Origin: a virus
Strand: one strand, 5' to 3'
UHGV virus genome: UHGV-0293859
Length of the DNA: 33,868 nucleotides
The notes below the pieces were generated by a model. It saw nothing but the letters and a program-made list of their open reading frames with translations. It did no database searches and was not told the origin of the DNA. Numbering within the stretch: position 1 is the stretch's first letter; each line of letters begins with the position of its first letter. A program made the translations under genes and the position numbers. Positions 1-33,868 of this stretch are shown piece after piece.

Positions 1-2
1 GT

Positions 3-12
3 GTCATGACAT
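3..12. repeat. 10-bp direct repeat GTCATGACAT, left copy (second copy at 33705-33714); candidate attL core
   Basis: Exact 10-mer seen at both window ends, adjacent to integrase on the left; chance expectation ~0.03 per strand for a given 10-mer in 34 kb. Confidence 0.3.
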
Positions 13-234
13 ATCGACCTTTACGTGAAGCTTCCGACGGAGTAATAAACGGTGCGGCTTTCCGGCAGGCTATACGGTATGCTGTACATGTGGCCCGCTA
101 AAAGTTTATGGACAAGACACTAAATCCCGTACGCGATGCCAATTCTCGTCAGCACGTGACGGAATGACCCTTGATTTTCCTACATTTTGCGCAGTTTTGA
201 GCGCACCTGAAAGCGCCTGACAGAAAAAAGCGCC

Positions 235-276: not shown

Positions 277-1464
277 ATGGCAGGCATCATTAAACGCAAC
301 AACAAATGGGTGGCCGTCTTCCGCTCCCTGGACGGCAAAGAGCTTCGGAAAACCACCGGCATCGACGTGGTTCCCAAGGCGCTGCTTCCGGGAGCCAATA
401 AGAAATCGGTCATGTCCCAGAATGAAGCCCGGGCGCGGCTGGTGGCCCAAGAGATGGAGAAAGAAGCCCGTTACGGGGTTTTTGACCTGGACAAGGTGAA
501 GGCCATTGCCGGGGACCAGGCCGGCGTGCTGAAAGCCACCATGAACGGCATGACGGTGACGCGGTTCCTTTTTGACTGGCTGGACGGGAGGAAAAACAAG
601 AAGCGGGCCTATGAGCGGGACGGCATGGCCGTCCGCCGGCTTCTGGCGTTCCTGGGGGACCGGCGGAATATGCCGCTGGCCGCCCTGAATAAAGGGATGG
701 CGAAGGATTTTGTAGAAACGGAATTGGAGCGCGTTTCCGCCGGAACCGTCATCCGCTATGTGTCCACGCTGTCCACCGCGTTCAATGTCGCTGTAGACCG
801 CGAGATACTTCCCCGGAATCCGTTCCGGGGCGTCATGCCTTCCCGGGCGGACCACCAGGCGGAAAAGCAGCTGCGCGGCGCCTTCACCATGGAGGAAGTG
901 AACACCATCATTGAACGGTTCCCGGATGAATGGCCGGATCTGGTGCGGGTGTGCCTCTACACCGGAGGACAGCGCCTCGGAGACCTGGCGACGCTGAAAT
1001 GGGAGCAGATTGACCTGAAGAACTCCTTCCTGTTCATGACCACGCAGAAGAGCCGGCGCCGCATGAACAAGCCGATCATCCAGCCCTTGAAAGAGGTTCT
1101 GGAAAGGCGTCTGGTCAACCGGGTGAACGATTACGTGTTTCCCCTGGCCGCGCTTCGCCATGCCCATGCCGGCGGACGTTCCGACAAGCTTTCCACGGAG
1201 TTCACGACATTGTTGAAAACGTACGGAATCATCCGGGAGATGCCCGGGGAAGTGAGAGGCGACCGGCACCGGCTTTCGGAAAAGAGCTTCCACAGCCTGC
1301 GGGCGACCGCCGTGACCGTCCTGCGCCTGTCCGGGGTGTCCCCGGATTTGTGCCGCTTCATCGTCGGCCACGACTCCGAAGAGATTGAACGGGTGTATTT
1401 CCGCCCGGATTCGGCGGACGTCCAGGAGGCCATGAGCAAGATTGCCGTCGGACTGGCCCGTTAG
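277..1464 (+). CDS. int: Phage tyrosine integrase (site-specific recombinase)
   Basis: 395 aa; N-terminal arm-binding-like region, C-terminal catalytic region with HSLRATAVT...GHDSEEIERVYF (R..H..R..Y type motifs); ATG start; position at prophage edge. Confidence 0.9.
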   Translation: MAGIIKRNNKWVAVFRSLDGKELRKTTGIDVVPKALLPGANKKSVMSQNEARARLVAQEMEKEARYGVFDLDKVKAIAGDQAGVLKATMNGMTVTRFLFDWLDGRKNKKRAYERDGMAVRRLLAFLGDRRNMPLAALNKGMAKDFVETELERVSAGTVIRYVSTLSTAFNVAVDREILPRNPFRGVMPSRADHQAEKQLRGAFTMEEVNTIIERFPDEWPDLVRVCLYTGGQRLGDLATLKWEQIDLKNSFLFMTTQKSRRRMNKPIIQPLKEVLERRLVNRVNDYVFPLAALRHAHAGGRSDKLSTEFTTLLKTYGIIREMPGEVRGDRHRLSEKSFHSLRATAVTVLRLSGVSPDLCRFIVGHDSEEIERVYFRPDSADVQEAMSKIAVGLAR

Positions 1465-19405: not shown

Positions 19406-20831
19406 CGGTAAATCCTTTCATGAGTCCGGCGTAAATCATTTGCTGAAGCTGCTCGTAGGCGTCGGGCGGAATGAGCGCTTTTTCCGGTTCCCTGTTGGAC
19501 GCCGTCACCGGAACGGGTTCCTGCGTGTCCTCGATGGACATGCCGATCTTTTCTTCGATTTCGGTTTTCTCGGGGCGGACGCCTCCGTCCGCAAGCGCGG
19601 CGATTTCCTCGGCCTTCTGCAGCGGCGTCTGGACGGTGTCAAAGGTGATGTGGAGGCGGGCCAGCGGTTCGCCGTCTCCCAGGACTAGCGGGCTGATGGC
19701 GGCGTTAAAAGCTTCGGCGACTTTGGAGCAGACCGCGGAGACGACCGAATTCCAGCTGTCCGTGTGCGCTCCCCCGGCCAGCGTGCCGGAGCCTGATTCA
19801 TTCAGGACGGTCAGAGTGCCGGCCATTACAAACCGCACCTGGTCCTTGTCGGACATGTTGATTCGGGATAGGAAATAGTTTTCGTTGATGTTGGAGGCTT
19901 TCAACGGTTCGGCGGTGCAGCCGGGAGGAAGCACAATGGAGGCTCCCGATTTGAGTTCCTCACAGGCCCGTTCCAGCGCGTCCATGACGGCGGCGCTCGC
20001 GTCCTTGGGCGCCGTGATGATGACCGGGGCGCTCCCGTAGCGGTCCATATGGTTGTCCCACGTAACTTTGGCGTGATTCCGCTCAAAAGAGGCGCGGGTT
20101 GCCGGAAAAAGAATGGGGTTCCGGTGCTCCATGACCACGAGCGTTTCTTCCTCTACGCTCTCGCCCGTGTCGACCCCGATGTAGCACTGGGGATTAAACT
20201 GCCATTCGTTCAGCTCTCCGGGCCGCACCCAATATCGCTGCGGGATGAATTCAAAGCGGCGGCCCCAGGAATCTTCGATGTATTGGAGGTGGGCGTAACC
20301 GTAAAACATAGCGGAGGCCAACTGCCCAAAGGCCTGTTGAAGTCCGGTGACGGAGTGATAGAATTCTTCCAGCGCGTTCTGCTGACGCTGGGCTTCCGGG
20401 CTGTCGTCCGCGGCGTCAATCTTCCAGCCCTGCATGGAAACGCTTTCAATGAGCCGGGAATAGAGCATGCCCAGCAAGCCGTCCGAGTAGATGACCTCGT
20501 CCCAAATGAGCATTTGGCGGGCAAAGGCTCCACGCCGCGCTTCGTTCCTGGCGTCAATCAGGGTTTGCAGGTCGGCTCCCTGTAACGGATCCCAATATTC
20601 AAACCATTGGGGCTGGTTAGGCTTCCTGCTCTGTTCCGTCAAGGCTCGCCGGGTGAGTTCCGTTTCAAGCTCCTTGATTCTGGTCTCCTGTTGGGCGACC
20701 AGCTTCGGAGCATTGAGGATATTTTTGACGGCGTTAAACCTGCAGCGGAAGAAAAGAAAATGGTGGTTGCAGGGGAAGGAGTTGGACCTTCGATTCGGGG
20801 ACAGGAACCCCGCGTGATACCGTTTCACCAC
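19380..20831 (-). CDS. Portal protein
   Basis: 483 aa, immediately downstream of TerL; size and position; Mu-gp29/DUF935-like by recall only. Confidence 0.65.
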   Translation of the reverse strand: MVKRYHAGFLSPNRRSNSFPCNHHFLFFRCRFNAVKNILNAPKLVAQQETRIKELETELTRRALTEQSRKPNQPQWFEYWDPLQGADLQTLIDARNEARRGAFARQMLIWDEVIYSDGLLGMLYSRLIESVSMQGWKIDAADDSPEAQRQQNALEEFYHSVTGLQQAFGQLASAMFYGYAHLQYIEDSWGRRFEFIPQRYWVRPGELNEWQFNPQCYIGVDTGESVEEETLVVMEHRNPILFPATRASFERNHAKVTWDNHMDRYGSAPVIITAPKDASAAVMDALERACEELKSGASIVLPPGCTAEPLKASNINENYFLSRINMSDKDQVRFVMAGTLTVLNESGSGTLAGGAHTDSWNSVVSAVCSKVAEAFNAAISPLVLGDGEPLARLHITFDTVQTPLQKAEEIAALADGGVRPEKTEIEEKIGMSIEDTQEPVPVTASNREPEKALIPPDAYEQLQQMIYAGLMKGFTDDQYETNQ

Positions 20832-20884
20832 CCTGCGATTGTTTACATATCGTCATATATTGATATCTTGATATGTTGTCAACC

Positions 20885-23563: not shown

Positions 23564-23592
23564 TGCAATACTAAACAATGTTTAGTATATTG
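23564..23592 (+). promoter_or_regulatory. Sigma70-like promoter (-35 TTGCAA 23564-23569, -10 TATATT 23587-23592) with a 19-bp palindromic operator TACTAAACA-A-TGTTTAGTA (23570-23588) filling the spacer
   Basis: Read directly; 9-bp perfect inverted arms; preceded by T-rich UP-like tract. Confidence 0.5.
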
Positions 23593-23661
23593 ACCTTGTT
23601 GACGGGAGGTAAGGGACCGAACGAAGACACAATCCAAAACCAAATCAGAAAGAACAAGACA

Positions 23662-23985
23662 ATGAACGACAACAAAATCATCACCACGGAAGACGGCGAA
23701 GAAATCAATCTGAGCGCGCTTGAACGCGAATTCGGTAGCTATGATTTTGAAGGACACACCTACTATGCTGCTCGCCAAATGGAATTAACCAATCGTCTTT
23801 TTGCCGGATGCTACAACGACGCGGAAGACGGGGACGAATACACCGAGGAATACTCCGCGCCCGGATACGACGAAAACGGAAACCCCGTGGAAATCTTCAT
23901 GACTTTCACGCAGGTGAAAGGTGAAGAGATAGACCCGGAAAACCTTAACTGGTTCCAGGACTCCGACCGCGTTGAAGCCCTCTAA
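23662..23985 (+). CDS. Small highly acidic protein (108 aa from ATG 23662); anti-defence (Acr-like) candidate
   Basis: D/E-rich (EDGEEINLSALEREF...DAEDGDEYTEEYSAPGYDENGNPVE...); first gene of operon under the palindromic operator. Confidence 0.5.
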   Translation: MNDNKIITTEDGEEINLSALEREFGSYDFEGHTYYAARQMELTNRLFAGCYNDAEDGDEYTEEYSAPGYDENGNPVEIFMTFTQVKGEEIDPENLNWFQDSDRVEAL

Positions 23986-24024: not shown

Positions 24025-24234
24025 ATGACTATTCAAGAATTTGTTGATTGGGTGCAGTCCAGATACCATTTGCGATCCAAAACTTCTGCGGTCAAAAAGG
24101 CTGCGCAAATGTTGCGTGTGACGGAAATGGCGGTGTGGCAATGGTTGGGCGGGTCCAGAAAAACGAGTCCGTCGATGGATCTTCTGATGAATTTAATCAT
24201 GGAACGAGGGACGACCAAAAATCTCCCCCGCTGA
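24025..24234 (+). CDS. Cro/YdaS-like helix-turn-helix DNA-binding protein (Aca-like position)
   Basis: 69 aa; SAVKKAAQMLRVTEMAVWQWLGG matches the ..KLAxxLGVSQQAVSQWL.G.. HTH pattern of Cro/YdaS family. Confidence 0.55.
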   Translation: MTIQEFVDWVQSRYHLRSKTSAVKKAAQMLRVTEMAVWQWLGGSRKTSPSMDLLMNLIMERGTTKNLPR

Positions 24235-32354: not shown

Positions 32355-32437
32355 TGTTCAACGTCCATCTAAATTTGATATGATAAGCATCAAAAATACG
32401 ATAATGCCGCCTATAAGAATTAGAAACACGCCATCAT

Positions 32438-32770
32438 TCATAACTCGTTATTATTTTTAACTTTTGTCCTGGTGATTCTCGTCGTTCCTGACACGATGAT
32501 TTGTCCTCCGTCCGGTTTATAAATCACATACCCATATATTGGAATATCTCCCCTCGATCCCATCCTGAACGCCTCAACACAGTTTGCATATCCCGTTGTA
32601 AAAACAACATCGGGAATGCCGTTCTGTTCAATTTTAAATTCCCATGTTGGTGTCTCTTTTTTTAGGGGTTTTTCCTGATTATCGGCTTGTTTAACAGGTT
32701 GAGGCTCGGAACCCTGATCGCAACCTGAAAGAACAAGCCCGGACAAGACGAGGGCGAACAGAGCTTTCAC
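32438..32770 (-). CDS. Lipoprotein (signal peptide plus lipobox LSGC) in low-GC accessory island; superinfection-exclusion candidate
   Basis: MKALFALVLSGLVLSGC...; AT-rich codon usage unlike the rest of the prophage. Confidence 0.55.
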   Translation of the reverse strand: MKALFALVLSGLVLSGCDQGSEPQPVKQADNQEKPLKKETPTWEFKIEQNGIPDVVFTTGYANCVEAFRMGSRGDIPIYGYVIYKPDGGQIIVSGTTRITRTKVKNNNEL

Positions 32771-33009
32771 TTCTTCACCTCCTTCTGTTCGGTTTTCTTA
32801 AAAGGTGGTTCACCACCTACAGGCAAAAAAACTCGCTTCTTAACAATGCGTTTTGTTTTAGGTGGTTCACCACCTGCGAGCAAAAAAACTACTTGCCCAG
32901 AAACAGATCTTTGTTCTTTTCGTGCAATCAGTTTTATCTGTTCAAATAAGTCAATAGGGAGGTTAATTGTTATTTGCTTTTTCTCGTATTTCTCTGGCGA
33001 TGTTCTCAT
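32767..33009 (-). CDS. Ribbon-helix-helix (Arc/CopG-like) DNA-binding protein with repeat-encoded C-terminal tail
   Basis: KKQITINLPIDLFEQIKLIARKEQRSVSGQVVFLL (beta-alpha-alpha); tail AGGEPPKTK...VGGEPPFKK encoded by the 57-bp-period DNA repeat. Confidence 0.45.
   Translation of the reverse strand: MRTSPEKYEKKQITINLPIDLFEQIKLIARKEQRSVSGQVVFLLAGGEPPKTKRIVKKRVFLPVGGEPPFKKTEQKEVKK
32802..32874. repeat. Two copies of AGGTGGTTCACCACCT-N-GCAAAAAAACT (57-bp period); third related perfect palindrome GGTGGTTAACCACC at 33194-33207
   Basis: Read directly: 32802-32817, 32859-32874, 33194-33207. Confidence 0.6.
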
Positions 33010-33454
33010 AATCTTCGGGTGTAAGAATTACATTTTGAGTTTGTTGAACCAAATAAGCGGTAATGATTTCAGTCATGGTCATATTCAGCTCTTTTGCTCT
33101 CTTTTGAAATTTTCGGAAGAGGACGATTGGTATCCATACTGAAATCTGTTTTTTGTCTATCTTCCGTTGACTTGGCATGTGCTCACCATAATCGGTGGTT
33201 AACCACCAGTCAATACTATTTTTCATTTTTCTACATTTTTTTTCATCATAAATCATACCTGAGCTCTTCACAATTTTTTTCCCTTCATTAGTATTAAGGG
33301 TGTAATGAAGATAATTAGGTATACAGATCTCGACATGGATTCCTAAGTCATCTTTGATGGAGGAACGGGAAAACGAAGAGATTGACGAGTTCATTTCTTT
33401 TTCTCCTCCTTTTGAGTGATGTTCCTCAAGATCCTTTTCGTGGTTCTCCGGCAA
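32963..33454 (-). CDS. Protein with C-terminal RHH domain paralogous to the adjacent RHH (KKQISVWIPIVLFRKFQKRAKE vs KKQITINLPIDLFEQIKLIARKE)
   Basis: 163-aa ORF (ATG at 33394 also plausible); low GC. Confidence 0.4.
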   Translation of the reverse strand: MPENHEKDLEEHHSKGGEKEMNSSISSFSRSSIKDDLGIHVEICIPNYLHYTLNTNEGKKIVKSSGMIYDEKKCRKMKNSIDWWLTTDYGEHMPSQRKIDKKQISVWIPIVLFRKFQKRAKELNMTMTEIITAYLVQQTQNVILTPEDYENIAREIREKANNN

Positions 33455-33603
33455 CCTTCAATAATGCCGAGTCGGAAACAAGTGAACCCGAACAGAACGG
33501 CCAGCAAGAAAAACACAAGCATTACGTTACCTGACATTGCCGTAACCCTTTCTTGCTGAAAATTTAGTTACTAATACGCTAATATTTAAAGCGTTATAAA
33601 TGC

Positions 33604-33618
33604 GGGGGGGGGGGGGGG
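33604..33618. repeat. Homopolymeric G15 tract
   Basis: TGC-G15-TAGG read directly; lies ~150 bp upstream of the - strand RHH/lipoprotein gene cluster. Confidence 0.8.
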
Positions 33619-33704
33619 TAGGATTTCCAGTTTTTCATGAGATTTGATGTCTTGTGACCCCGTTAAGACGTTTTGTCATCAATTTCCCGTTCACCGGATG
33701 ACAA

Positions 33705-33714
33705 GTCATGACAT
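33705..33714. repeat. Right copy of GTCATGACAT direct repeat (candidate attR core), embedded in inverted repeat TTGTCATC...GATGACAA
   Basis: Read directly. Confidence 0.3.
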
Positions 33715-33814
33715 TGCCTAAAACGCTGAAAAAAGGGTTGCCTAACGGGTAAAATGTGATATAAAAGGCACGTATTCAGATTCCTGACTACGTCCTTTCT
33801 ATTTATTCTTTTCC

Positions 33815-33845
33815 GTCCGCGTCGGGAGACGCGGGCGGTTTTTTA
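33815..33845 (+). terminator. Rho-independent terminator (CCGCGTC-GGGA-GACGCGG followed by T6)
   Basis: Read directly; preceded by a possible promoter TTGCCT-16-TATAAA at 33738-33765. Confidence 0.55.
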
Positions 33846-33868
33846 TCCTCGCAGGGTTCATTTTTTCT

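What the first reader, a model, noticed from the sequence alone, without database searches (positions are those of the whole stretch)
32400..33620. Low-GC accessory island at the prophage right end: lipoprotein plus two paralogous RHH proteins and GGTGG(N4)CCACC palindromes
About 1.2 kb of markedly AT-rich DNA encodes a lipoprotein and two overlapping genes with paralogous ribbon-helix-helix modules (KKQI[ST].W/N.P..LF). The lipoprotein has a signal peptide and lipobox LSGC. Three copies of a GGTGGTT-N-AACCACC-type palindrome lie in the 3' parts of the RHH genes, and two of them carry a conserved GCAAAAAAACT flank with a 57-bp period. The same DNA repeat generates a repeated GGEPP peptide tail on the small RHH protein. 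This looks like a horizontally acquired, self-regulated cargo module. The lipoprotein could be a Cor/Llp-like superinfection-exclusion factor. A toxin-antitoxin-like arrangement is also possible.
Basis: partly seen in the sequence, partly recalled or inferred. Interest (0 to 1): 0.6.

Follow-up and report, generated by a model that had tools for sequence, protein, structure and literature searches.

The report
Akkermansia phage RHH control module
The AT-rich end of this Akkermansia phage holds a conserved pair of small DNA-binding regulator genes with three binding-site-like palindromes inside them, followed by a swappable slot that here carries a membrane lipoprotein; it is an uncharacterised variant of a familiar kind of phage control region, not a foreign cargo island.

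Summary
The window is an Akkermansia muciniphila temperate phage. It is circularly permuted, with the attachment site near position 145.

- **Core, not cargo.** The two ribbon-helix-helix (RHH) genes and the three palindromes occur in all 36 related loci. They sit at the start of the early operon, and next to the integrase in the loci closest to the window. Only the lipoprotein lies in a variable slot. In sibling phages that slot holds a Bro-N/KilAC antirepressor, SieB or other genes.
- **The palindrome is GGTGGT-NN-ACCACC.** It is selected as DNA. Synonymous sites vary at 0 of 11 positions inside it and at 80 of 114 outside (p = 5e-6). A distant relative has the symmetric change GGCGGT..ACCGCC, with one copy lying between genes.
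- **A nested gene is likely.** Site 1 fills the 17-nt spacer of a promoter-like element whose predicted transcript would begin at invariant Met73 of the large gene. About 70-aa stand-alone homologues begin at that same Met.
- **Best reading.** This is an autoregulated immunity/early-control module resembling P22 immI, with a superinfection-exclusion-type cargo slot downstream.
- **Not supported.** A toxin-antitoxin system and Cor/Llp family membership both failed their tests.

No binding or expression data exist for any of this.

The parts
33605..33619 (.). Homopolymer tract: 15 G on the + strand, poly-C in the operon sense. It lies about 15 nt upstream of the putative promoter of the operon.
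   Evidence: Read directly from the sequence. Its length ranges from 6 to 19 across 16 relatives and differs between otherwise identical loci, for example L020 (15) against L021 (12).
33391..33537 (-). First gene of the operon. It encodes a 48-aa single-pass membrane peptide (MSGNVMLVFFLLAVLFGFTCF... with a basic tail). Its stop overlaps the large RHH gene's start as ATGA.
   Evidence: ORF. It is conserved at 70-100% in most relatives but absent from the group of relatives with 68-70% identity in the large RHH protein and from L038. It has no family match.
32963..33394 (-). Large RHH gene (143 aa from the ATG at 33394). It has a variable N-terminal half and a nearly invariant C-terminal RHH plus a third helix.
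   Evidence: Alignment A1. dN/dS is 0.45-1.0 for the N-terminal part and 0.00-0.12 for the C-terminal part. The AF2 helices at 90-103, 107-120 and 126-141 are confident. PHROGs Arc-like repressor match at E = 5e-4.
33185..33213 (-). Promoter-like element inside the large RHH gene: TTGACT, a 17-nt spacer, then TATGGT. Dyad O1 (33194-33207, GGTGGTTAACCACC) fills the spacer.
   Evidence: Found by the promoter scan. The geometry -35/17 nt/-10/6 nt/ATG is kept in all 13 sequence variants, including the distant L038 and L040. A at position 2 and T at position 6 of the -10 hexamer never change.
32963..33178 (-). Proposed nested gene: a 71-aa RHH protein starting at Met73 (ATG 33178-33176). This is exactly where a transcript from the internal promoter would begin, giving a leaderless mRNA.
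   Evidence: M73 is invariant. An exhaustive HMM search finds 180 relatives, and many of the 150 listed are proteins of about 70 aa that begin at query position 73 or 74. Inferred, not shown.
32767..33009 (-). Small RHH gene (80 aa). The RHH core spans residues 9-45, followed by a tail carrying the duplicated VFLxxGGEPP.
   Evidence: Pfam RHH_5 at 27.4 bits against a gathering score of 26. Alignment A2 shows that the linker between the two GGEPP copies swings from basic to acidic and that single-repeat variants exist. The last residues (QKEVKK) derive from a deleted antirepressor gene.
32861..32874 (.). Dyad O2, GGTGGTGAACCACC in the operon sense. A T7 run (window 32882-32888) precedes it by 7 nt.
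   Evidence: It lies 333 nt from O1 in all 32 related loci that carry all three sites. Its synonymous sites are invariant.
32804..32817 (.). Dyad O3, GGTGGTGAACCACC in the operon sense. A T7 run (window 32825-32831) precedes it by 7 nt. It lies 34 nt upstream of the first gene of the variable slot.
   Evidence: The equivalent unit in L038 is intergenic and reads GGCGGTGAACCGCC.
32438..32770 (-). Lipoprotein gene (110 aa; lipobox LSGC, Asp at +2). Its GTG start overlaps the small RHH gene's stop as GTGA. It occupies the variable cargo slot.
   Evidence: The family has 27 clusters, none with a name. In the AF2 model, residues 41-105 form a confident six-strand beta domain. There is no fold match. 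The slot's content varies between loci.
32358..32441 (-). 27-aa single-pass membrane peptide ORF (MNDGVFLILIGGIIVFLMLIISNLDGR), ATGA-coupled to the lipoprotein gene's stop.
   Evidence: A coupled hydrophobic peptide of 23-34 aa follows the lipoprotein gene in most loci, in four unrelated sequence versions.
33762..33846 (+). Candidate small RNA transcribed away from the operon. It has promoter TTGCCT-16-TGaTATAAA, a 5' hairpin, a U-rich linker and an intrinsic terminator. Whether it belongs to the module is not established.
   Evidence: Terminator. The fold is -37.9 kcal/mol with z = -6.3. Promoter and terminator are conserved while the 5' hairpin varies with a compensatory change. No target was found. 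The conserved module ends just beyond it, at 33843/33844.

Best explanation
This is the conserved immunity/early-control module of an Akkermansia temperate phage family, followed by a swappable accessory slot. It is not a cargo island.

**Proposed mechanism**
- Two paralogous RHH repressors are the first conserved genes of the long leftward early operon.
- They are proposed to bind a 14-bp dyad, GGTGGT-NN-ACCACC, as dimers or dimer pairs.
- O1 lies in the spacer of a promoter inside the large RHH gene. That promoter would make a leaderless mRNA starting at Met73. The mRNA would encode a 71-aa RHH protein (the conserved C-terminal domain) and the small RHH protein. Occupancy of O1 would give autorepression.
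- O2 and O3 are 57 bp apart in the tail-coding end of the small RHH gene. They lie just upstream of the first downstream gene and would gate expression of whatever follows. In sibling phages that gene is a Bro-N/KilAC antirepressor. In this window the antirepressor was lost by deletion between 12-nt repeats, so the gene that follows is a lipoprotein coupled to a membrane micro-peptide.
- The lipoprotein pair is most likely a lysogen-expressed envelope factor of the superinfection-exclusion type.

**Shown**
- The module is conserved, and its position at the start of the early operon is constant.
- The dyads are under DNA-level selection and show symmetric covariation.
- The promoter geometry at O1 is conserved.
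- The stand-alone homologues start at the same Met.
- The slot content varies between phages.

**Inferred**
- Which RHH protein binds which site.
- That the internal promoter fires.
- The direction of regulation.
- The function of the lipoprotein.
For: **The module is core**
- The RHH pair occurs in all 36 related loci. It sits beside two integrase types that share 58% identity and lie in opposite orientations, and also in backbones with no integrase nearby.
- It always precedes the early recombination and replication genes.

**The dyads are selected as DNA**
- Degenerate third codon positions vary at 0 of 11 positions inside the dyads and at 80 of 114 elsewhere in the same genes (Fisher p = 5.5e-6, 24 unique sequences).
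- The arms are fixed while the centre is free: TA, GA, TC, GT and GC all occur.
- In L040 the protein motif changes from DWWL to YRWC, yet the arms stay intact.
- In L038 both tail sites read GGCGGT..ACCGC(C/A), a symmetric T3-to-C and A12-to-G change. One of them lies after the stop codon.
- Positions 6 and 9 are conserved, although they could not pair in a hairpin with a 2-nt loop.

**The nested gene**
- The pattern -35/17 nt/-10/6 nt/ATG is kept in 13 variants, and A2 and T6 of the -10 hexamer are invariant across 7 different hexamers.
- M73 is invariant.
- Many of the relatives listed by the exhaustive search are proteins of about 70 aa that start at position 73 or 74.
- dN/dS is 0.00-0.12 for the C-terminal part and 0.45-1.0 for the N-terminal part.

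**The downstream slot**
- Sibling phages carry a Bro-N plus ANT antirepressor directly after the small RHH gene (97.3 and 95.4 bits). The deletion junction that removed it here is visible.
- SieB occupies the same slot in other relatives.
- The lipoprotein gene is translationally coupled to the small RHH gene.
Against: - There are no binding, transcript or phenotype data.
- The generic promoter scan is not enriched in this region (5 hits against 3.0 +/- 1.8 in shuffles), and the Akkermansia promoter consensus is not known to me.
- The dyad is absent from the main upstream promoter region, which is where an autoregulatory operator would classically sit.
- The hexamer following O2 and O3 is not a conserved -10 element, so how these sites would control downstream genes is unclear.
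- The compensatory change in L038 would equally fit an RNA hairpin.
- The invariant T7 run 7 nt upstream of O2 and O3 is not explained by a simple operator model.
- The full-length 143-aa ORF stays open in all variants, so the long form is probably also made, and its role is unknown.
- If an antirepressor is regulated here, the primary repressor it targets has not been identified.
Confidence: 0.5

Rival explanations
1. The T7-N6-hairpin units are recoding signals rather than, or as well as, protein-binding sites. Each unit has an in-frame slippery heptamer (U UUU UUG or U UUU UUA), a 6-nt spacer and a stem-loop. A -1 shift reaches a UGA inside the dyad. This would give a truncated, tail-less small RHH protein alongside the full-length form, as in dnaX tau/gamma.
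For: - Both units carry the heptamer in the zero frame, and the wobble bases of GTT and TTT are invariant in 24 sequences.
- The spacer is 6 nt, followed by a stem of 5-6 pairs.
- L038 keeps U UUU UUA, 6 nt and a stem strengthened by the change to GGCGG/CCGCC.
- A natural T8 variant (L011, L030) is frameshifted at exactly this run.
- The dnaX comparison rests on my own knowledge.
Against: - The stems are weak: -8.5 to -9.1 kcal/mol, z = -1.3 to -1.6.
- O1 has the same dyad but no slippery run.
- The second unit in L038 lies after the stop codon, so it cannot act on that ORF.
- The conservation of positions 6 and 9 and of the flanking A...T is not needed for a hairpin.
- Duplicating a frameshift signal has no obvious use.
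Confidence: 0.1
2. The RHH proteins and repeated dyads serve episome maintenance. They would act either as a CopG/ORF56-like copy-number repressor of the replication operon or as a ParG/omega-like centromere-binding protein with a centromere-like repeat array. The family can live as a low-copy circular element.
For: - pJ30893 is a 32.8-kb circular replicon of this family, reported at about 3 copies per chromosome in A. muciniphila JCM 30893 (PMC7019068).
- DTMo-2021a was also deposited as a separate complete sequence.
- The RHH genes head the operon that contains the replication initiator and a DnaC-like loader.
- Sub-threshold hits to ORF56 and CopG-type families occur among the relatives.
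Against: - No ParA- or ParM-type NTPase was found among the early-region ORFs that were searched.
- The family clearly integrates: host thiS and mutL flank L020, and a tRNA-Ser lies next to the integrase in L013 and L034.
- About 3 copies could simply reflect spontaneous induction.
- The copy-control version is mechanistically almost the same as the best explanation, since both involve repression of the early operon.
Confidence: 0.15
3. This is a toxin-antitoxin-like addiction or abortive-infection module. An RHH antitoxin or antitoxins would neutralise a small toxin. The candidate toxin is the 48-aa membrane peptide, possibly controlled by the divergent small RNA as in a type I system. The palindromes would act as autoregulatory operators.
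For: - RHH domains are common in antitoxins, and there is a weak BrnA-like hit at E = 0.022.
- The 48-aa peptide has the hydrophobic helix plus charged tail typical of type I toxins (my knowledge).
- A structured candidate sRNA lies divergently upstream.
- Genes in the module are tightly coupled.
Against: - PADLOC gave no hit, and NCBIfam gave only hits far below their cut-offs.
- No toxin fold is present, and both larger proteins are DNA binders.
- The membrane peptide is absent from the relatives with 68-70% identity and from L038, which keep the RHH pair and the dyads.
- The candidate sRNA has no better-than-background complementarity to the peptide mRNA (-10.6 kcal/mol against a background of -8.7 +/- 2.9).
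- A genuine TA cassette (SocA/Panacea) is found as a separate insertion in some relatives.
Confidence: 0.07
4. The dyads are recombination or module-boundary sequences. They would mark where accessory cassettes are exchanged, and would not be regulatory sites.
For: - Homology between relatives breaks within about 10-30 nt after O3, which is the start of the variable slot.
- In L011 and L030 an insertion of about 800 nt begins right after O2, and that site has an inverted centre (TC instead of GA).
Against: - O1 lies in the middle of a conserved gene, not at a boundary.
- There is no matching dyad at the far end of the slot; each locus has only three copies.
- The one deletion junction that could be resolved uses a different 12-nt repeat, AAGAAAACCGAA.
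- No dedicated recombinase is associated with the sites.
Confidence: 0.08

Closest known systems
Salmonella phage P22 immI region (mnt, arc, ant, sar RNA, with sieA nearby). The comparison rests on my own knowledge of P22.
   Same: - Two paralogous small RHH repressors lie beside an antirepressor gene. Bro-N/KilAC is present directly downstream in siblings L006 and L008.
- Superinfection-exclusion genes lie in the neighbourhood (SieB).
- A small structured RNA is encoded at the locus (candidate only).
- The region lies near the attachment site and integrase end of the genome.
   Different: - The proteins do not pass the Pfam Arc model (12 bits against 20.4).
- The two RHH genes are co-directional and overlapping, not divergent.
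- The dyads lie inside coding sequence and not at one shared promoter pair.
- One RHH domain is nested in a longer ORF.
- The module heads the whole early operon.
- In this window the antirepressor is deleted.
Autoregulated RHH repressors of mobile-element early or replication operons: Reg576 of plasmid p576 (PMC6294495) and CopG of pMV158 (PDB 1ea4)
   Same: - A small RHH protein is encoded in the operon it represses.
- Short symmetric or dual motifs are bound cooperatively by two dimers (Reg576 abstract).
- The CopG-DNA complex is among the best, though non-significant, fold matches (TM 0.71 on the target, rmsd 2.2 over 40 residues).
   Different: - There is no significant sequence or fold match.
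- The operators here are intragenic and 333 and 57 bp apart.
- Two different RHH proteins are involved, one with an extra third helix and an optional N-terminal extension.
Lambda cI expressed from PRM as a leaderless mRNA, and lambda ori iterons inside gene O (my knowledge)
   Same: - A repressor message would start at the A of its AUG, from a promoter controlled by the repressor's own operator.
- Binding sites for a DNA-binding protein are embedded in the gene of that same protein.
   Different: - The protein fold differs (RHH rather than helix-turn-helix).
- The promoter here lies inside a longer in-frame ORF.
- Nothing has been shown experimentally.
Phage-encoded superinfection-exclusion envelope proteins: Cor (phi80, N15, T1), Llp (T5), Ltp (TP-J34) and SieB (P22, lambda). 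My knowledge for their functions.
   Same: - The protein is small and secreted, with a signal peptide and lipobox.
- It is encoded in the lysogeny/immunity region.
- It is positionally interchangeable with a bona fide SieB homologue.
   Different: - There is no sequence similarity beyond the signal peptide.
- There is no fold match.
- It is paired with a coupled micro-peptide of 23-34 aa.
- Asp at +2 would predict inner-membrane retention under the E. coli rule, unlike the outer-membrane lipoproteins Cor and Llp.

Membership tests
Ribbon-helix-helix (CopG/Arc/MetJ) DNA-binding superfamily | Small RHH protein: match to a curated RHH profile above its threshold | tested here: met
   Pfam RHH_5 PF07878 at 27.4 bits against a gathering score of 26, residues 13-44. 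The database precomputes the same family for most homologues.
Ribbon-helix-helix (CopG/Arc/MetJ) DNA-binding superfamily | Large RHH protein: N-terminal beta strand with alternating polar residues, followed by two helices, supported by a profile or fold match | tested here: inconclusive
   - There is no Pfam hit.
- PHROGs Arc-like repressor matches at E = 5.2e-4.
- hhalign to the small RHH family gives 77.8% probability, E = 1.9e-5.
- AF2 gives helices at 90-103 and 107-120, but as a monomer it forms no strand.
- The Foldseek top hits are all RHH proteins, but with E > 0.6.
- The relatives give only sub-threshold RHH_1, RHH_3 and NikA hits.
P22 immI-type Arc/Mnt-Ant system | The repressors belong to the Arc/Mnt sequence family | tested here: not met
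   Pfam Arc PF03869 gives 12 bits against a cut-off of 20.4 for the small protein and nothing for the large one.
P22 immI-type Arc/Mnt-Ant system | An antirepressor gene lies immediately downstream of the RHH repressor in the same transcription unit | tested here: not met
   It is absent from this window. It is present in siblings L006 and L008 (Bro-N 97.3 bits, ANT 95.4 bits). The window shows a deletion junction at the 12-nt repeat.
P22 immI-type Arc/Mnt-Ant system | Operators overlap the promoter(s) that the repressors control | tested here: inconclusive
   O1 fills the spacer of a conserved promoter-like element. O2 and O3 show such a geometry only in the L006-type relatives, where TATAAA follows the dyad. 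No transcript data exist.
Cor/Llp-type superinfection-exclusion lipoproteins | Signal peptide with a lipobox cysteine | tested here: met
   The protein begins MKALFALVLSGLVLSG-C, and the cysteine is invariant in the 16-sequence alignment. No dedicated signal-peptide predictor was available.
Cor/Llp-type superinfection-exclusion lipoproteins | Sequence or fold similarity of the mature domain to Cor or Llp | tested here: not met
   PHROGs Cor family phrog_1119 matches at E = 0.013 over residues 1-34 only. Foldseek against PDB and BFVD gave no match at E <= 0.001.
Cor/Llp-type superinfection-exclusion lipoproteins | The protein blocks infection by the same or related phages when expressed | not testable with these tools
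   This needs plating assays on an Akkermansia host.
Type II toxin-antitoxin system with an RHH antitoxin | An adjacent toxin gene of a recognised toxin family | tested here: not met
   PADLOC gave no hit for six module proteins. NCBIfam gave only a BrnA-antitoxin-like hit at 14.9 bits against a cut-off of 60. No Pfam toxin domain was found.
dnaX-like programmed -1 frameshift cassette | A zero-frame X XXY YYZ heptamer, a 5-9 nt spacer and a downstream stem-loop | tested here: met
   U UUU UUG (or U UUU UUA) is followed by 6 nt and a GGUGG/CCACC stem at both units. The stems are weak, and one homologous unit lies outside any ORF.
dnaX-like programmed -1 frameshift cassette | Two protein products from one gene | not testable with these tools
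   This needs a reporter assay or proteomics.
ParG/omega-type partition system | An adjacent ParA- or ParM-type NTPase gene and a centromere repeat array upstream of the operon | tested here: not met
   No such ATPase was found among the early-region ORFs scanned. The repeats are intragenic.

The most novel reading that the evidence does not exclude
Akkermansia phages of this family may lack a classical CI/Cro switch. They would instead use a compact module in which the regulatory DNA is written into the regulators' own coding sequence. One element would be a repressor gene nested in-frame within a longer gene. It would be expressed as a leaderless mRNA from an intragenic promoter whose spacer is its own operator. 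Two further operators would be embedded in the tail codons of the second repressor. These may double as dnaX-like frameshift signals that set the ratio of tailed to tail-less protein. The whole unit would sit behind a hypervariable poly-C tract and a divergent small RNA, which could make prophage immunity or induction phase-variable within a gut population.
Probability: 0.15. Interest if true: 0.65.

Novelty: new variant of a known kind. Interest (0 to 1): 0.4.

Why it matters
Akkermansia muciniphila is a health-associated gut bacterium and is being developed as a probiotic. Its prophages are inducible, and one member of this family was reported as a 3-copy "plasmid", yet nothing is known about how they control lysogeny.

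This module is the best candidate for that control region. It gives a defined 14-bp site, three proteins and a predicted transcript start, all of which can be tested directly. The neighbouring slot is a natural place to look for phage-resistance determinants in Akkermansia strains. More generally, the module is a clean example of regulatory DNA under selection inside coding sequence, with a repeated peptide (GGEPP) arising as a by-product.

Tried and rejected
- **Palindrome formula.** The pattern GGTGGTT-N-AACCACC gave 0 matches, so the site was redefined.
- **Known RNA families.** Rfam gave only a tRNA at gathering threshold, plus two chance-level hits in the region.
- **Palindromes as terminators or strong RNA hairpins.** They fold at -8.5 to -9.1 kcal/mol with unremarkable z-scores, and the downstream T-runs are not conserved.
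- **Three operator-in-spacer promoters.** The hexamer after O2 and O3 is not a conserved -10 element. I kept the idea only for O1.
- **Target of the candidate sRNA.** No duplex was better than background.
- **Solved-structure relatives by sequence.** None was found for either RHH family.
- **Fold of the lipoprotein.** There was no significant match in PDB or BFVD. afdb50 was not searched.
- **N-terminal half of the large RHH protein.** The AF2 confidence is below 50, so no fold call was made.
- **DNA context of the stand-alone 70-aa homologues.**
  - The alignment was too divergent for a pattern scan.
  - Two single-protein scans of viral contigs found nothing.
  - The phage and plasmid collections hold only the Akkermansia elements.
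- **Defence-system and toxin-antitoxin profiles.** Nothing was found.
- **Window as a prophage bounded exactly by att sites.** Rejected. Its two ends are contiguous in L006, and the host junction maps to about position 145.


Full report
**What the window is.** The window matches Akkermansia phage DTMo-2021a at 85-87% nucleotide identity. It also matches the 32.8-kb circular element pJ30893 of A. muciniphila JCM 30893, which was reported as a plasmid at about 3 copies per chromosome (PMC7019068). Most of the long ORFs lie on the - strand. A tyrosine integrase sits at 277..1464 (+).

The two ends of the window are contiguous in a related contig, L006. In a 114-kb contig (L020), homology to the window runs through its right end and on to about position 147 of its left end. 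Beyond that point come host thiS and mutL. So the window is a circular permutation with the attachment site near position 145. In the integrated state, the region in question does lie at one prophage end, about 480 nt from the junction.

**Checking the observation.** Every element is present.
- GC is 39.7% over 32358-33620 against 56.4% elsewhere. This is the lowest such stretch in the window, and GC3 is 0.32-0.41 against 0.56-0.73.
- Four genes were found on the - strand and are translationally coupled:
  - a 48-aa membrane peptide (33537..33391), joined by an ATGA overlap to the next gene;
  - a 143-aa protein (33394..32963), overlapping the next gene by 47 nt;
  - an 80-aa protein (33009..32767), joined by a GTGA overlap to the next gene;
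  - a 110-aa lipoprotein with lipobox LSGC (32770..32438).
- A fifth, 27-aa membrane-peptide ORF (32441..32358) is again ATGA-coupled.
- The 80-aa protein passes Pfam RHH_5. The 143-aa protein carries an RHH-like C-terminal domain.
- The palindrome occurs three times against 0.05 expected. It is best written GGTGGT-NN-ACCACC.
- The site at 33194 lies mid-gene, not in a 3' part.

**Core or cargo?** I collected 36 related loci from viral, genome and metagenome collections, plus pJ30893 and two more distant loci.
- The large/small RHH pair is present in all of them. It lies next to either of two integrase types (58% identical, opposite orientations). In the relatives with 68-70% identity and in L038, it lies directly after the late genes with no integrase nearby.
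- It always heads the early genes: a PD-(D/E)XK exonuclease, a methyltransferase, a replication initiator and a DnaC-like loader here, and RecT, an exonuclease and RusA in L038.
- The GC trough sits on the module in every relative.
- By contrast, the stretch between the small RHH gene and the next conserved gene (p55) is variable. It carries different content in different loci:
  - this lipoprotein, or 42-45%-identical versions of it;
  - a SieB homologue on the opposite strand (Pfam 70.5 bits);
  - an HTH_17 protein;
  - a Bro-N plus KilAC antirepressor;
  - or no gene that I recognised.
- The window's arrangement derives from an antirepressor-bearing form by deletion between two copies of AAGAAAACCGAA. 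As a result, the last residues of the small RHH protein come from the antirepressor's 3' end.

So the RHH genes are core, and the lipoprotein is the accessory part.

**Are the palindromes functional DNA?**
- All three sites, with spacings of 333 and 57 nt, are present in 32 of the 36 loci. Two loci have two sites. The remaining two are a degenerate remnant that has lost the membrane peptide, the N-terminal part of the large gene and most of the small gene.
- Among 24 unique sequences, degenerate third codon positions vary at 0 of 11 positions inside the dyads and at 80 of 114 elsewhere in the same two genes (p = 5.5e-6). This test ignores shared ancestry.
- The arms never change, while the central dinucleotide is TA, GA, TC, GT or GC.
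- In L040 the encoded peptide at site 1 changes from DWWL to YRWC, yet the arms are intact.
- In the distant L038 the two tail sites read GGCGGTGAACCGC(C/A), a symmetric change of T3 to C and A12 to G. The second copy lies after the stop codon, still preceded by a T7 run at the same distance.
- The linker between the two GGEPP peptides swings from basic to acidic across relatives.

Together these results show that the repeated GGEPP peptide is a by-product of a DNA element, not the other way round. As RNA hairpins the sites are weak and statistically unremarkable. The conservation of positions 6 and 9, which could not pair across a 2-nt loop, fits recognition of a duplex dyad better.

**A nested gene.** The scan for sigma-70-like sites found TTGACT-17-TATGGT on the - strand at 33213-33185, with site 1 filling the spacer. 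The number of such hits in the region is not above chance, so this alone means little. Four further observations strengthen it.
- The arrangement -35, 17 nt, -10, 6 nt, ATG is kept in all 13 sequence variants. This includes L038 (TTGACG ... CACAAT) and L040 (TTTACA ... GAAGAT).
- The -10 hexamer differs among the variants (TATGGT, TATGTT, CATAGT, CATTAT, CATGAT, CACAAT, GAAGAT), but A at position 2 and T at position 6 are always kept.
- The ATG is Met73, which is invariant in the family. With six bases after the -10 hexamer, its A is the expected +1, giving a leaderless message.
- An exhaustive profile search found 180 relatives. Many of the 150 listed are proteins of about 70 aa that begin at query position 73 or 74, typically with MPNQR or MPSQR.

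The C-terminal 71 residues evolve under strong purifying selection (dN/dS 0.00-0.12). The N-terminal part is barely constrained (0.45-1.0), although its frame stays open. I therefore propose that the conserved unit is a 71-aa RHH protein made from an intragenic, self-repressed promoter. The 143-aa form would be a second product from the upstream promoter. This is inference; no transcript data were available.

**Likely mechanism.** The closest analogue I know is the immI region of phage P22. It has two paralogous RHH repressors (Mnt and Arc), an antirepressor gene directly downstream, a small RNA and an exclusion gene nearby (my knowledge). Here the RHH pair precedes an antirepressor in sibling phages and exclusion-type genes in others. 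O2 and O3 lie 34-100 nt upstream of whichever gene comes next.

A second analogue is Reg576. It is an RHH protein that represses its own promoter and the promoters of early 'establishment' genes of a plasmid, with two dimers per operator (PMC6294495).

I give the operator/autoregulation reading a probability of 0.5. Its weak points are these:
- No dyad lies at the upstream promoter.
- No conserved -10 element follows O2 or O3.
- The invariant T7 run is unexplained.
- There is no evidence about which protein binds which site.

**Rivals.**
- *Frameshift signal.* The T7 run, a 6-nt spacer and a stem form, in the zero frame, a textbook -1 frameshift cassette (U UUU UUG/A). A UGA in the -1 frame lies inside the dyad, as in dnaX. 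This would explain the T run. It fails for site 1 and for the intergenic copy in L038, and the stems are weak.
- *Episome maintenance.* The plasmid-like state of pJ30893 suggests a maintenance role. No partition ATPase was found, however, and integrated copies are common.
- *Toxin-antitoxin system.* This reading finds no toxin.
- *Recombination boundary.* This role fits the insertion after O2 in L011 and L030, but it does not fit site 1 or the resolved deletion junction.

**The lipoprotein.**
- Its family is small (27 clusters), unnamed and restricted to these elements.
- The mature domain is predicted with confidence as a six-strand beta domain. It has no significant structural neighbour.
- The match to the Cor family covers only the signal peptide, so it is not a Cor/Llp member.
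- Four things favour a lysogen-expressed envelope function such as superinfection exclusion:
  - its position in a slot shared with SieB and an antirepressor;
  - its translational coupling to the small RHH gene;
  - its coupled membrane micro-peptide, which is present in four unrelated sequence versions;
  - its Asp at +2.
- This remains an inference.

**Verdict.** This is an uncharacterised variant of a known kind of phage control region. Its unusual features are operators inside coding sequence and a probable nested, leaderless repressor gene. It is of moderate interest, mainly because it gives a concrete handle on lysogeny control in Akkermansia phages.

Noticed in passing
window 33605-33619: A homopolymer of 15 G (poly-C in the operon sense) lies just upstream of the putative operon promoter. 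Its length ranges from 6 to 19 in 16 relatives and differs between otherwise identical loci (L020 15 against L021 12; L005, L026 and L034 at 12, 19 and 12). It could be a slipped-strand, phase-variable element or an assembly artefact.
   Followed up: partly
window 33726-33846 (+): A candidate small RNA of about 80 nt is transcribed away from the operon. It has a conserved extended -10 promoter (TTGCCT-16-TGaTATAAA), a 5' hairpin that differs between phage types with a compensatory change, a U-rich linker and a strong terminator. It folds at -37.9 kcal/mol with z = -6.3. There is no Rfam match and no convincing target.
   Followed up: partly
window 32358-32441 (-): An unlisted 27-aa ORF encodes a single transmembrane helix, with its ATG overlapping the lipoprotein gene's stop (ATGA). 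A coupled peptide of 23-34 aa follows the lipoprotein gene in most relatives, in four unrelated sequences.
   Followed up: partly
window 1-150 and 33843-33868: The window is circularly permuted. Its ends are contiguous in L006, and the host junction (thiS, mutL) in L020, L018 and L022 maps to about window 141-147. Relatives with the other integrase type lie next to tRNA-Ser genes (L013, L034).
   Followed up: yes
L037 (NZ_AP021899.1, pJ30893): The element published as a plasmid of A. muciniphila JCM 30893 (about 3 copies per chromosome) is a member of this phage family. In the gene table of the plasmid collection, which is incomplete, the large RHH gene is listed as hypothetical. The small RHH gene and the 48-aa peptide are not listed. 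At the SieB position the listed ORF appears to be on the opposite strand.
   Followed up: partly
L037 3536-4346; L017 and L019, at the position of window ~33723-33730: Some relatives have an insertion of about 940 nt between the integrase and the operon. It carries a SocA/Panacea-domain antitoxin gene (68 bits) and a small membrane-protein partner. This is a genuine toxin-antitoxin-type cassette, separate from the RHH module.
   Followed up: partly
L006 4628-5419; window 32776-32797: Siblings carry a Bro-N plus KilAC antirepressor directly after the small RHH gene. The window lacks it because of a deletion between two copies of AAGAAAACCGAA, which fused the antirepressor's last codons to the small RHH gene.
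   Followed up: yes
L011 4400-5290; L030: In these variants the T7 run has become T8, which frameshifts the small RHH gene, and site 2 has an inverted centre (TTCA). An insert of about 800 nt follows. It carries an opposite-strand 141-aa YdaS-like HTH gene and a third, 65-aa RHH-like ORF that ends with the usual small-RHH C-terminus (PKKPAA).
   Followed up: partly
window 32825-32831 and 32882-32888, with the adjacent dyads: Each T7 run is, in the zero frame, a U UUU UUG slippery heptamer lying 6 nt before the stem. The -1 frame stops at a UGA formed by position 6 and the GA centre of the dyad. This resembles the dnaX frameshift cassette.
   Followed up: partly
window 33676-33715: In the integrase-operon intergenic region there is an inverted repeat, TTGTCATC-N16-GATGACAA, followed directly by the palindrome GTCATGAC. 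It is conserved in most relatives but not all (the second arm is lost in the L005 type). It may be a recombination-protein or regulator site.
   Followed up: no
window 33575-33595: A short dyad in the putative upstream promoter (ACGCT-N9-AGCGT here, CACTAA-N3-TTAGTG in DTMo-2021a) shows what looks like a paired change between phage types (CGC..GCG against CAC..GTG).
   Followed up: no
window 20764-20837 (-): A tRNA-Arg (CCT) gene lies inside the structural-gene region of the phage.
   Followed up: no
window 24025-24234 (+) and 23578-23985 (+): Two of the few plausible + strand ORFs lie here. One is a 69-aa protein that looks by eye like a small Cro/YdaS-type HTH, though it has no Pfam hit. The other is an acidic 135-aa protein. 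They lie between the replication genes and the small terminase gene, and the first could be a candidate for the missing primary repressor.
   Followed up: no
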